Part shown: one piece after another, positions 58,437 to 59,690 of the stretch
How the letters are laid out: each line of letters opens with the position of its first letter
Position numbering within the stretch: position 1 is the stretch's first letter
Assembly: GCA_963812015.1 (NCBI GenBank)
Contig: CAWETI010000002.1
Coordinates: forward strand, 1,088,001 to 1,152,000
Reading direction: 5' to 3'
Source of the DNA: an uncultured delta proteobacterium
GTDB taxonomy: Bacteria > Desulfobacterota > Desulfobaccia > Desulfobaccales > 0-14-0-80-60-11
Length of the DNA: 64,000 bases
Translations under genes and position numbers: made by a program
The notes under the pieces: generated by a model
Databases searched by the model: none
What the model was told of the DNA's origin: nothing
Seen by the model: only the letters and a program-made list of their open reading frames with translations

Positions 58437-58494
58437 ACCGTTGCCCCTGGCATACGCCCCGGCCTGAGTCGAACTAACCCTTGTATGTTAAAGG

Positions 58495-58692
58495 GAACCG
58501 GTACATAGTTTGGTCATTAAAGAACCAGGCCATCAGGAGCAGTACTGCTCCTGATGGCGGCGTGGCAGGCCGTCCTAACCCTTGGTCCTTCAAGACCGCG
58601 GTGAGAGCGTGGCCGCCACGTCGCCCTGGCATTAACCCGAACAGTCGCCCGGGCTTTGAAGCCCGTATCTTGCAAGGACGGGAGGCCAAGGC
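58495..58692 (+). ncRNA. Predicted bridge RNA (5' hairpin, target-binding loop, donor-binding loop); ends approximate
   Basis: Hairpin 58529-58558; loop 1 (58556-58625) with guides CCTAACCCT / GTGAGAG; loop 2 (58627-58688) with guides ACAGTCGC / TGCAAG. Confidence 0.85.
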
Positions 58693-58697
58693 TTTTT

Positions 58698-59651
58698 ATG
58701 CACCCTGAATCCGTATTTGTCGGCATTGACGTCTCTAAGGACCAGTTAGACATCGCCATCCGGCCAGGAGAGGTCCGGTTCCGGGAGTCCAACAACGACT
58801 CCGGTATCCAGGCCCTCGTTGTCCGACTTTTGTCCCTTAAGCCCCAGCTCATCCTCCTGGAAGCCACCGGTGGCTATGAGATCCTGGCCGCCGCCGCCTT
58901 GCGGCAGGCTGACCTGCCGGCCCACATTATTAACCCTCGTCAGGTGCGAGACTTTGCCCGGTCCTCCGGCAGATTGGCCAAAACCGATAAGATCGACGCC
59001 GCGGTTCTGGCTCATTTTGCCGAGGCGCTGAAACCGTCCCTCCGACCCTGGCCAGATGAGCATCAACAGGAATTGGCCGCCCTCATGAGCCGGCGCCGGC
59101 AACTGGTGGAGATGCTGGTCATGGAGAAAAATCGCCTATCCATGACTTTCTCCCCACGGGTCCGCAGAAGCCTGCAAACCAACCTCCAATCCCTTAAAGA
59201 ACAACTTAAGGAGTTGGAGCAAGATTTGGACGACTTCATCCGTCAAAGCCCCATCTGGCTGGAGAAGGATCAACTCCTCCAGAGCGTCCCGGGAGTCGGC
59301 CCCTTAACCTCCCAAAGCCTGTTAGCCTGGGTGCCGGAGTTAGGCACCTTAAATCGCAAGAAGATCGCCGCCCTGGTGGGGTTGGCCCCCTTTAACCGCG
59401 ATAGCGGTCAGATGCGGGGCAAGCGCACCGTTTGGGGTGGCCGGGCCCGGGTGCGGCCTCCCTTGTATATGGCTACGTTGGCCGCCTGCCGGGTCAATCC
59501 GGCCATCCGTGCCTTCTATCTCCGGTTGCTGGCAATGGGTAAGAGCAAGAAATTGGCTCTTACCGCCTGTATGCGTAAACTGTTAACCATCCTTAATGCC
59601 ATACTTAAACAACAGCAACCCTGGTGCCCCCTTGCACCAGTTAACCCTTGA
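58698..59651 (+). CDS. IS110 transposase / bridge recombinase
   Basis: RuvC DEDD (GIDVSK, LEATG, KTDKID); Tnp domain 'SVPGVG', '[10 protein letters not shown]' Ser, 'ACMRKLL'. Confidence 0.96.
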
Positions 59652-59668
59652 CATCTAACACAGTCGCT

Positions 59669-59690
59669 CTCCCCCATTGGGGGAGAGGGG
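59669..59690. repeat. Right part of the REP-like hairpin interrupted by IS110
   Basis: Reconstructed empty site: CTAA-CCCTCTCCCCCA-T-TGGGGGAGAGGG. Confidence 0.75.

What the first reader, a model, noticed from the sequence alone, without database searches (positions are those of the whole stretch)
58473..59675. IS110 bridge RNA whose two loops match this copy's own target and donor DNA
Seen: the ~215-nt non-coding left end has a 30-nt perfect palindrome (58529-58558) and two stem/internal-loop/hairpin units. Unit 1 has stem GGCGGCGTGGC-A-GGCC / GGCC-GCCACGTCGCC and inner hairpin GGTC/GACC. Its left guide CCTAACCCT (58574-82) matches the left flank plus core ACTAACC-CT (58473-81) at 8/9. Its right guide GAGAG (58603-07) is the reverse complement of core plus right flank CT-CTC (59667-71). 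Unit 2 has inner hairpin CGGGCTT/AAGCCCG. Its left guide ACAGTCGC (58641-48) equals the right IS end ACAGTCG-C (59660-67). Its right guide TGCAAG (58671-76) pairs with CT-TGTA of the circle junction with one G:T wobble. Established: IS621-type IS110 elements use such a bispecific RNA with a DEDD/Ser recombinase and a CT core; the IS621 donor as I recall it is ACAGTATCTTGTAT, here ACAGTCGCTTGTAT. Inference: this is an intact programmable RNA-guided recombinase with target (C/A)CTAACC-CT-CTC. The system class is described; I cannot tell whether this ortholog is.
Basis: partly seen in the sequence, partly recalled or inferred. Interest (0 to 1): 0.92.

Follow-up and report, generated by a model that had tools for sequence, protein, structure and literature searches.

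The report
IS110 element with its bridge RNA

Summary
Window 58482-59666 is a 1185-bp IS110-family element flanked by a CT core on both sides. It encodes a 317-aa DEDD/Ser recombinase (NCBIfam "IS110 family RNA-guided transposase", 235.8 bits against a cut-off of 140). Its 216-nt left end folds into two stem/internal-loop/hairpin modules.

The genome holds 8 near-identical copies and one 56-nt fragment. All 9 sit at (C/A)C(T/A)(A/G)ACC-CT sites in REP-like repeats. The target guide CCUAACC-CU matches 4 sites at 9/9 and 5 at 8/9. No perfect empty site is left in the genome; 27 one-mismatch sites are empty.

Across 23 orthologues the guides follow each element's own target: 9.65 of 12 matches against 4.45 for other elements' targets, reached by 0 of 20,000 permutations. 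An independent set of 25 guide sets gives the same result. The helices show compensatory changes, and a sigma-70-like promoter forms only across the circle junction.

This is a new member of a known kind (IS621/ISCro4 bridge recombinases). RNA expression, circle formation and catalysis are inferred. This scan has reported such bridge RNAs before, in at least 9 other genomes, but none on this sequence. By-product: Rfam sX15 appears to be the reverse complement of an IS110 bridge RNA.

The parts
58473..58479 (+). Left target half (LT) of this copy, ACTAACC
   Evidence: It matches the target guide at 6 of 7 positions; the mismatch is at position 1.
58480..58481 (+). Left copy of the CT core
   Evidence: CT flanks all 8 copies on both sides.
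58482..59666 (+). IS110-family insertion sequence, 1185 bp
   Evidence: One search finds 8 full copies in the genome; 5 are identical and 3 differ by 1-3 bases. One search gives the boundaries from the flanks.
58484..58489 (+). -10-like hexamer TATGTT of the circle-junction promoter
   Evidence: TTGACA, 17 nt, TATGTT (10 of 12) only when RE-CT-LE are joined; no promoter-like site in the integrated sequence.
58529..58558 (+). 5' stem-loop (30-nt perfect palindrome) just before the target-binding module
   Evidence: a strong hairpin at this place, with different sequences, in 10 of 23 orthologues.
58556..58625 (+). Target-binding module (outer stem, internal loop, inner hairpin)
   Evidence: helix 1 has 12 pairs, 11 of them with changes on both sides.
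58574..58582 (+). Left target guide CCUAACC-CU
   Evidence: 9/9 to 4 insertion sites and 8/9 to 5. One search shows covariation across orthologues.
58601..58607 (+). Right target guide GUGAGAG. Its reverse complement CT-CTCAC compares with the flank CT-CTCCC.
58608..58609 (+). Candidate handshake guide CG of the target module, complementary to donor positions 6-7 (CG, 59665-66)
   Evidence: Read, by analogy with PMC11208158 (passages). Inference.
58636..58682 (+). Donor-binding module (CCC/GGG stem, internal loop, hairpin 58650-58665)
   Evidence: helices 3-5 are 98-100% paired, and 3 of the 4 hairpin pairs show changes on both sides.
58641..58649 (+). Left donor guide ACAGUCG-CC. The donor reads ACAGTCG-CT.
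   Evidence: position 6 (C or T) agrees with the right end in 22 of 22 orthologues with the ACAGT-type end. In L073 both change together.
58671..58676 (+). Right donor guide UGCAAG. It pairs with CT-TGTA with one G:T wobble.
58677..58678 (+). Candidate handshake guide GA of the donor module. The G can pair with target position 7 (C).
   Evidence: G with C in 22 orthologues. L036 is the only one with A and the only one whose sole target has T.
58681..58685 (+). Shine-Dalgarno-like GGAGG, overlapping the closing GGG of the donor module
58698..59651 (+). Recombinase gene, 317 aa, with D11, E55, D97, D100 and S236-G237
   Evidence: relatives of 317 aa cover 100% of the query.
59648..59653 (+). -35 hexamer TTGACA in the right end, overlapping the stop codon
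59660..59666 (+). Right end of the element (left donor half), ACAGTCG
59667..59668 (+). Right copy of the CT core
59667..59687 (+). REP-like hairpin of the target: CTCTCCCCC-ATT-GGGGGAGAG. The right target half CTCCC is at 59669-73.

Best explanation
Window 58482-59666 is an intact IS110-group insertion sequence that moves by bridge-RNA-guided recombination, as IS621 does.

Inferred cycle:
1. The element excises as a circle in which the right end, one CT and the left end are joined (ACAGTCG-CT-TGTATG).
2. That junction assembles a promoter: -35 TTGACA in the right end, a 17-nt spacer across the core, and -10 TATGTT in the left end.
3. The promoter drives a transcript of roughly 200 nt starting near 58496.
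4. The RNA folds into a 5' hairpin, a target-binding module and a donor-binding module.
5. [quoted passage not shown]
6. In the donor module, ACAGUCG-C and UGCAAG read the element's own junction in the same way.
7. A tetramer of the 317-aa recombinase (RuvC-like D11/E55/D97/D100 with the nucleophile S236) cuts next to CT, exchanges strands and resolves the junction. The inserted element ends up flanked by CT.

The natural target is CCTAACC-CT-CTC, inside a REP-like hairpin repeat.

Shown here: the anatomy, conservation, covariation, and the pattern of occupied and empty sites. Inferred: transcription, RNA-protein binding and chemistry.
For: Protein:
- Pfam DEDD_Tnp_IS110 (2.8e-25) plus Transposase_20 (2.4e-18).
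- NF033542 'IS110 family RNA-guided transposase', 235.8 bits against a cut-off of 140.
- PDB ISCro4 (1e-37) and IS621 (8.8e-37). All five catalytic residues and the following Gly align.

RNA structure:
- 24 consensus pairs, 16 with compensatory changes; 92.3% of cells paired against 76.8% in shuffles; 0 of 500 shuffles reach any measure; slid partners give 35-50%.
- Covariance model R1 finds a full-length match directly upstream of the gene in 77 of 80 related loci. Of the 51 loci not used to build it, 48 have a match.

Guides against targets:
- In this genome, 9 of 9 sites match at 8/9 or better, and 4 match at 9/9.
- In 23 orthologues, own-target matches average 9.65 of 12 against 4.45 for others (506 cross pairs). 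The permutation test gives 0 of 20,000 (observed 222, maximum 148).
- In the independent loci, the right end was located from the donor guide alone in 41 of 48. The 25 distinct guide sets average 4.16 of 5 against 1.50, again 0 of 20,000.
- Close relatives show single-base retargeting. L100 (90% aa) has guide CCTGACC at a CCTGACC site. L101 and L102 (77% and 74%) have GAGATC and GAGATT guides at GAGATC and GAGATT sites.

Site census: 0 empty perfect sites and 27 empty one-mismatch sites. Occupied sites number 4 CCTAACC, 3 of 8 CCTGACC and 1 of 14 CCAAACC.

Promoter: a junction-spanning promoter-like site occurs in 17 of 23 circle junctions and 1 of 23 integrated junctions. None is found in the integrated window sequence.

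Recent activity: 5 of 8 copies are identical and the other 3 differ by 1-3 bases, none in a guide.
Against: - There is no expression evidence. No RNA run was available to lay, so transcription of the left end is untested.
- No circle junction or empty site was seen. The contigs of the 4 runs laid gave no joints, and contigs are poorly suited to show them.
- 5 of 9 sites carry one mismatch to the left target guide, including 3 at position 4.
- The right target guide agrees beyond the core for only 3 consecutive bases in this element (CTC, then A against C).
- The ninth base of the left donor guide is C where the core has T.
- The -10 hexamer is only 4 of 6.
- 6 of 23 orthologues show no junction promoter under the same rule.
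- No Rfam family reaches its threshold.
- The permutation tests do not correct for relatedness among orthologues.
Confidence: 0.88

Rival explanations
1. The element is a correct bridge-RNA IS in design but is now inert: a silenced or defective family that no longer moves.
For: No circle junction or empty donor site was seen in the contigs laid. No RNA evidence exists. Perfect target sites are exhausted.
Against: 5 of 8 copies are identical and 3 differ by 1-3 bases. All reading frames are open (348-aa open frames, no stops). The catalytic residues are intact. Variants of the element sit at other sites in metagenome contigs from other studies (loose ends in X3 and X5).
Confidence: 0.06
2. Site choice is set mainly by the recombinase recognising the REP-like hairpin (its structure or protein-DNA contacts). 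The RNA match would then be secondary or a by-product of landing in one repeat family.
For: All sites lie in or beside a GC-rich hairpin repeat. For ISPpu10, a target stem-loop adds specificity beyond base pairing (abstract of 10.64898/2026.03.19.712850). Occupied sites tolerate single guide mismatches.
Against: Orthologues with unrelated, non-REP targets keep the same guide-target rule. Relatives at 74-90% aa identity change guide and target together, base by base. Occupancy falls as guide mismatches appear within the same repeat families.
Confidence: 0.05
3. The structured left end is only a cis-regulatory leader of the transposase mRNA (attenuator, RBS occlusion or antisense target), and its matches to the flanks are coincidence.
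For: The basal stem of the second module overlaps the Shine-Dalgarno or start region in many orthologues. Read on the minus strand, the 5' palindrome scores as terminator-like.
Against: Guide-target and guide-donor covariation gives 0 of 20,000 permutations in two separate sets. The helices are conserved while the loops vary with the targets. A regulatory side role is compatible with the bridge function rather than an alternative to it.
Confidence: 0.01

Closest known systems
IS621 of Escherichia coli (IS110 group) with its 177-nt bridge RNA. Durrant et al. 2024, PMC11208160 (passages and supplements searched). Hiraizumi et al. 2024, PMC11208158 (passages).
   Same: The RNA lies in the left end upstream of the recombinase, in two stem/internal-loop/hairpin modules. 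A 9-nt left target guide pairs with the bottom strand, and a right target guide pairs with the top strand; both include the CT core. The donor loop is analogous. The donor is almost the same (ACAGTCG-CT-TGTAT here, ACAGTAT-CT-TGTAT in IS621). A promoter forms at the circle junction. All DEDD and Ser-Gly catalytic residues align. Both target REP-type repeats.
   Different: The protein is distant (phmmer E 8.8e-37) and blastn finds no match in E. coli genomes. It has 317 aa; IS621 has 326 by the domain ranges in PMC11208158. The target is different (CCTAACC-CT-CTC). The 5' hairpin is a 30-nt perfect palindrome. The right target guide can extend to 7 nt in many orthologues. Activity is untested.
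ISCro4 / IS622 bridge recombinase (PDB 9t56). Perry et al. preprint 10.1101/2025.05.14.653916, seen in the search listing only.
   Same: It is the best PDB sequence match (E 1e-37, residues 2-309 on 5-319).
   Different: Distant in sequence. Nothing else was compared here.
ISPpu10 of Pseudomonas putida (10.64898/2026.03.19.712850, abstract read)
   Same: An IS110 element whose insertions all fall in a conserved intergenic repeat with a GC-rich stem-loop.
   Different: There the stem-loop is a 5' extension of the target. Here the core lies in the left arm of the hairpin, and a structural requirement has not been tested.
IS1111-group elements with seekRNA (Siddiquee et al. 2024, PMC11187229; search listing and start of abstract only)
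   Same: A DEDD transposase and RNA-guided target choice.
   Different: By my recall, that group carries its guide RNA downstream of the gene; the abstract says it has subterminal inverted repeats. Here the RNA is upstream and the ends are not inverted repeats (read).
Rfam RF02234 sX15, with the complementary asX7, of Xanthomonas plasmid pXCV183 (Schmidtke et al. 2011, PMC3300014; passages)
   Same: The sX15 model matches the minus strand of the bridge RNA region here (23.8 bits) and in L025 (45.1 bits, gathering score 55). My model R1 matches the strand opposite sX15 on pXCV183 over its full length (53.8 bits, E 1.4e-14).
   Different: sX15 is filed as an sRNA of unknown role, on the opposite strand. 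The pXCV183 locus is a remnant: a bridge-RNA-like left end followed by only about 24 codons of a transposase-like frame (MNGIGIDVCKAKL...), with no PF01548 match anywhere on the plasmid.

Membership tests
IS110 family, IS110 group (IS621-type bridge recombinase) | RuvC-like DEDD domain with all four acidic residues | tested here: met
   PF01548 at 2.8e-25. D11, E55, D97 and D100 align to IS621 D11, E60, D102 and D105.
IS110 family, IS110 group (IS621-type bridge recombinase) | C-terminal Tnp domain with the catalytic Ser followed by Gly | tested here: met
   PF02371 at 2.4e-18. S236-G237 align to S241-G242.
IS110 family, IS110 group (IS621-type bridge recombinase) | Curated family model score above its cut-off | tested here: met
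   NF033542 'IS110 family RNA-guided transposase': 235.8 bits, cut-off 140.
IS110 family, IS110 group (IS621-type bridge recombinase) | Non-coding RNA encoded in the left end, upstream of the recombinase gene | tested here: met
   The structured region 58529-58692 precedes the ATG at 58698. Model R1 matches directly upstream of the gene in 77 of 80 related loci.
IS110 family, IS110 group (IS621-type bridge recombinase) | Two modules, each a stem, an internal loop and a hairpin, supported by covariation | tested here: met
   24 pairs, 16 with compensatory changes, 0 of 500 shuffles.
IS110 family, IS110 group (IS621-type bridge recombinase) | The first loop's two guides match the target: the left guide equals the top-strand left half plus core, and the right guide is the reverse complement of core plus right half | tested here: met
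   9 of 9 sites in this genome match at 8/9 or better. Family-wide tests give 0 of 20,000 permutations, twice.
IS110 family, IS110 group (IS621-type bridge recombinase) | The second loop's two guides match the RE-core-LE donor junction | tested here: met
   ACAGTCG-C equals the right end plus the first core base. UGCAAG pairs with CT-TGTA with one wobble. Donor position 6 agrees in 22 of 22 orthologues, and L073 changes guide and end together.
IS110 family, IS110 group (IS621-type bridge recombinase) | A conserved core dinucleotide on both sides, with no terminal inverted repeats | tested here: met
   CT flanks all 8 copies on both sides. The ends TGTATG... and ...ACAGTCG are not inverted repeats (read; no repeat tool was run).
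IS110 family, IS110 group (IS621-type bridge recombinase) | A promoter for the RNA is reconstituted at the circle junction | tested here: met
   In silico only: TTGACA, 17 nt, TATGTT across the junction. 17 of 23 circle junctions against 1 of 23 integrated junctions, and none in the integrated window.
IS110 family, IS110 group (IS621-type bridge recombinase) | The RNA is made, binds the recombinase and directs recombination; loop changes retarget it | not testable with these tools
   No RNA run was laid. All four runs laid were DNA contigs and gave no joints.
Rfam bridge-RNA family | A match to a curated covariance model above its gathering score | tested here: not met
   The only matches are sX15 on the opposite strand (23.8 bits, gathering 55) and isrK (18.7 bits, gathering 50). 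I cannot tell whether Rfam 15 holds a bridge RNA family at all.
IS1111 group (seekRNA) | Guide RNA downstream of the gene, and subterminal inverted repeats | tested here: not met
   The RNA is upstream. Only 15 nt lie between the stop codon and the right end. That the IS1111 RNA lies downstream is my recall; the subterminal repeats are from the abstract of PMC11187229.

The most novel reading that the evidence does not exclude
The element and the host's REP-like repeats may be in an ongoing guide-target chase. Copies are spilling into one-mismatch variants (3 of 8 CCTGACC sites, 1 of 14 CCAAACC sites). A sister lineage at 90% aa identity has switched guide position 4 from A to G and sits in a CCTGACC site. 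If so, natural single-base reprogramming of a bridge RNA opens the next pool of repeats, and this family would give a natural read-out of per-position mismatch tolerance.
Probability: 0.35. Interest if true: 0.45.

Novelty: new member of a known kind. Interest (0 to 1): 0.3.

Why it matters
It confirms that bridge-RNA guides can be read directly from raw sequence and checked against a genome's own insertion sites.

It adds a compact orthologue (317 aa, 1185 bp) with a well-defined natural target spectrum: 9 sites, graded occupancy by mismatch, and close relatives with single-base guide changes. That could serve as a natural data set on mismatch tolerance, or as one more candidate for engineering.

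It does not change what is known about the mechanism.

The by-product has small curatorial value. It links the Rfam family sX15/asX7, sRNAs detected by Northern blot in 2011, to IS110 bridge RNAs. One search found no paper in the held library that mentions sX15 or asX7 together with IS110 or bridge RNA.

Tried and rejected
- Rfam scan of 58300-59900 at E up to 1: nothing near a gathering score.
- blastn ('distant') of the element against E. coli genomes, to fetch IS621 for a direct RNA alignment: no match. IS621 was therefore compared only through the PDB protein alignment and the papers.
- Laying contigs of X1, X3, X4 and X5 gave no joints, so neither a circle junction nor an empty site was seen.
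- The depth ratio between the IS and its flanks in X1 was not used as a copy number.
- Durrant 2024 supplements: strings from this element's left end are absent from the 7 files held as text. Two of those files were cut when stored and one PDF is unreadable, so absence from their data set is not proven.
- Defining left boundaries of multi-copy relatives by ungapped comparison failed for families F26 and F65. Those left sides were not used.
- The weak isrK match (hairpin plus U-run before the ATG) was considered as a terminator of the bridge RNA. The terminator scan does not call it, so it is left open.
- One search failed on a frame error and was corrected.
- exceeded the size limit and was re-sent with 18 of the 20 loci.
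- One search used an accession that is not in the collection; the RefSeq accession worked.
- No structure prediction or complex prediction was run.
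Full report
**What is there**

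The element spans window 58482-59666 (1185 bp) and has CT on each side (58480-81 and 59667-68). It has a 216-nt non-coding left end and an ORF from ATG 58698 to the stop at 59649-51, giving 317 aa. Only 15 nt lie between the stop codon and the right end.

The protein has Pfam DEDD_Tnp_IS110 (2.8e-25) and Transposase_20 (2.4e-18). It scores 235.8 bits on NCBIfam NF033542, "IS110 family RNA-guided transposase", against a cut-off of 140. Its only PDB relatives are the ISCro4 (E 1e-37) and IS621 (E 8.8e-37) transposases. In the IS621 alignment, D11, E55, D97, D100 and S236-G237 fall on IS621 D11, E60, D102, D105 and S241-G242. Hiraizumi et al. show these residues to be essential (PMC11208158, passages).

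**Check of the observation**

The left end folds at -94.5 kcal/mol with z = -4.0.

**Copies and insertion sites**

The genome (3.96 Mb, 6 contigs) has 8 full copies and one 56-nt left-end fragment. Five copies are identical and three differ by 1, 1 and 3 bases, none in a guide.

All 9 left junctions read N7-CT|TGTATG:
- CCTAACC, 4 times (L001, L003, L007 and fragment L009)
- CCTGACC, 3 times (L005, L006, L008)
- CCAAACC, once (L002)
- ACTAACC, once (the window copy, L004)

The 8 right junctions read ACAGTCG|CT-CTC in 7 copies and CT-CCT in one, L007. The guide CCUAACC-CU therefore matches 4 sites at 9/9 and 5 at 8/9.

The sites are REP-like repeats of the form ...CCCCTCACCCTRACC-CT-CTCCCCC-loop-GGGGGAGAGGGG. 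A truncated REP-associated tyrosine transposase gene is present elsewhere in the genome.

**Site census**

I scanned both strands for CCTAACC-CT-CTC with the core fixed. There are 0 empty perfect sites and 27 empty sites with one mismatch: 13 CCAAACC, 5 CCTGACC and 9 others.

Occupancy falls as guide complementarity falls:
- Sites with a perfect left half and CT-CTC: all occupied.
- CCTGACC: 3 of 8 occupied.
- CCAAACC: 1 of 14 occupied.

**Relatives and RNA structure**

A scan of representative genomes found 492 relatives and kept the best 80 (best identity about 61%). In 29 loci the ends could be read directly as ACAGT(C/T)G-CT ... CT-TGTAT.

An alignment of 23 non-redundant RNA regions (A1) gives a consensus of 24 pairs in two stem/internal-loop/hairpin modules, 16 of them with compensatory changes. 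On that MAFFT alignment, 92.3% of cells pair against 76.8% in shuffles. No shuffle reaches any of the five measures (0 of 500), and slid partners give 35-50%. The structure was derived from the same alignment, which favours it somewhat.

Covariance model R1 finds a full-length match immediately upstream of the gene in 77 of 80 loci. L034 and L049 have none (L049 has only 15 nt upstream), and L079 has only a partial match. In the window's genome it finds the 8 copies plus one weak orphan.

**Guide-target covariation**

Guides were taken from fixed alignment positions: the 7 non-core bases of the left guide and the 5 non-core bases of the right guide.
- Each orthologue's guides match its own target at a mean of 9.65 of 12.
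- They match other orthologues' targets at 4.45 of 12 (506 cross pairs).
- 0 of 20,000 permutations reach the observed total (222; permutation mean 107, maximum 148).

As an independent test I used only loci that were not used to define the columns. I located the right end from the donor guide alone, which succeeded in 41 of 48 loci. I then compared the right target guide with the flank. The 25 distinct guide sets average 4.16 of 5 against 1.50, with 0 of 20,000 permutations reaching that. Seven loci gave no right end and were left out. These permutations do not correct for shared ancestry.

The closest relatives make the same point base by base:
- L100 (90% aa identity) has guide CCTGACC-CT at a CCTGACC-CT site.
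- L101 (77%) has ..GAGATC at CGAGATC, with the reverse complement of its right guide, TCGCA, against flank TCGCT.
- L102 (74%) has ..GAGATT at CGAGATT.

**Donor side**

The donor is nearly invariant in this subfamily. Where it varies, the guide follows. Position 6 (C or T) agrees in 22 of 22 orthologues with an ACAGT-type end. In L073 the end is ..ATAATCG and the guide is AAAATCG. ACCGTTG, ACGGTTG and ACACCTG guides each have exact counterparts downstream of their genes, although those ends were found by using the guide.

The base after the right donor guide (G in CAAG-G) can pair with target position 7 (C). L036 alone has A there, and it is the only orthologue whose sole target has T at that position. 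This fits the handshake guides described for IS621. In this element, CG at 58608-09 is complementary to donor positions 6-7. This part is inference.

**Promoter**

Joining right end, CT and left end gives TTGACA (59648-53), 17 nt, then TATGTT (58484-89). The same rule finds a junction-spanning site in 17 of 23 circle junctions and in 1 of 23 integrated left junctions. This mirrors what Durrant et al. report for IS621 (passage).

**Metagenomes**

Near-identical proteins (89-97% identity) are common on short metagenome contigs and are named only "transposase". Contigs of four runs were laid. They show the element's ends running into flanks of other copies. In two other studies they run into further flanks ending ...CACCCA|AACC-CT and ...CCCTCACCCTG|ACC-CT. 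There were no joints.

**Comparison with what is known**

Every sequence-level feature that defines an IS621-type element was tested and met (see Membership tests). Expression and activity could not be tested.

Durrant's supplementary alignments already contain bridge RNAs with this donor: ACAGTCGCTTGTAT occurs 64 and 148 times in two files. They also contain targets of the form CCCTCACCCTAACCCTCTCCC, read by a different bridge RNA. Strings from this element's own left end are absent from the files held, two of which are truncated.

This scan has reported IS110 bridge RNAs in at least 9 other genomes, but none on this sequence.

**Verdict**

The element is a new member of a known kind. Confidence in the bridge-RNA reading is 0.88, and interest is 0.3.

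**By-products**

- *sX15.* The Rfam sX15 model hits the minus strand of the bridge RNA region here (23.8 bits) and in L025 (45.1 bits, gathering 55). R1 hits the strand opposite sX15 on Xanthomonas plasmid pXCV183 over its full length (53.8 bits). About 24 codons of an IS110-like N-terminus follow, and there is no PF01548 match on the plasmid. Schmidtke et al. detected sX15 and its complement asX7 and noted 10 homologues in Stenotrophomonas. One search found no paper that names sX15 or asX7 together with IS110 or bridge RNA.
- *Translation start.* A basal stem of the donor module pairs the inter-module linker with the sequence just 3' of the module. It folds better than shuffles in 17 of 23 orthologues (z < -1.5), and in many of them it covers the Shine-Dalgarno sequence or the start codon.

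Noticed in passing
window 58551-58692 (minus strand); L025 1306-1468; L180 1884-2032 (NC_007507 116383-116531): Rfam RF02234 (sX15, Xanthomonas sRNA) appears to be the reverse complement of an IS110 bridge RNA. sX15 matches the minus strand here (23.8 bits) and in L025 (45.1 bits, gathering 55). My model R1 matches the strand opposite sX15 on pXCV183 over its full length (53.8 bits). Only about 24 codons of a transposase-like frame follow. The complementary sRNA asX7, detected in 2011, would then be a bridge RNA from a remnant element. One search found no paper that mentions sX15 or asX7 together with IS110 or bridge RNA.
   Followed up: partly
G000:C2:999081-999198 (L098 682-799): An orphan bridge-RNA-like locus (R1 38.3 bits). 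It has a left-end-like start CT|TGTATC and an intact target-binding module, but the inner part of the donor module is deleted (33 model positions replaced by 5 nt). No IS110 gene follows; the next ORF has weak ACT-domain hits. It is probably the remnant of a different IS110 relative.
   Followed up: partly
G000:C2:1263945-1264000 (L099 246-301) and L099 354-551: The first 56 nt of the left end sit at a perfect CCTAACC-CT site and break off inside the left arm of the 5' palindrome. A little further on is the C-terminal 66 aa of a REP-associated tyrosine transposase (NF047646, 57.4 bits, profile positions 108-146 of 146). This looks like a deletion joining an IS copy to a truncated RAYT gene.
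   Followed up: partly
window 58623-58630 with 58685-58692; SD-like GGAGG at 58681-85; ATG at 58698: A basal stem below the donor-binding module pairs the linker with the sequence just after the module. Different sequences form it in different orthologues, for example CCUGGC/GCCAAGG, GCUUGC/GCAAGC and UUCUCC/GGAGAA. In 17 of 23 it folds better than shuffles (z < -1.5). It often contains the Shine-Dalgarno sequence or the start codon, so folding of the bridge RNA might limit translation of the recombinase.
   Followed up: partly
whole genome G000 (list): Two REP-like repeat families carry the target motif. Family A is ...CCCCTCACCCTRACC-CT-CTCCCCC-loop-GGGGGAGAGGGG. Family B is GGCCCCTGCCCCCTCTCCCAAACC-CT-CTCCCCCAACCCC.... 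Family B has 13 empty sites and 1 occupied site.
   Followed up: partly
window 58020-58436 (minus) and 59778-62450 (minus): The element lies 45 bp upstream of the start codon of a 138-aa gene that looks like a response-regulator receiver. It also lies downstream of an 890-aa gene that looks like a PEP-utilising enzyme. Both names are by eye; neither was scanned. The insertion may separate the regulator gene from its promoter or from read-through transcription.
   Followed up: no
L042, L044, L046, L092, L101, L102; L051-L058: In several orthologues the left target guide ends in CG or CA instead of CU, while the genomic core is CT. In the L051-L058 family the left junction reads TGTCA-TT (TGTCAC-T in L051) while the right core is CT. 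The second core position of the left guides seems free to vary.
   Followed up: no
G000:C2:800196-800630; C3:450120-450446; C3:891573-891899: There are three further IS110-family (PF01548) genes of other types in the genome (50.2, 33.2 and 33.2 bits). Model R1 finds no bridge RNA beside them.
   Followed up: no
window 58529-58558 (minus strand): Read on the minus strand, the 30-nt palindrome followed by CTGGTTCTTT scores as terminator-like. It could stop transcription entering the element from the right.
   Followed up: no
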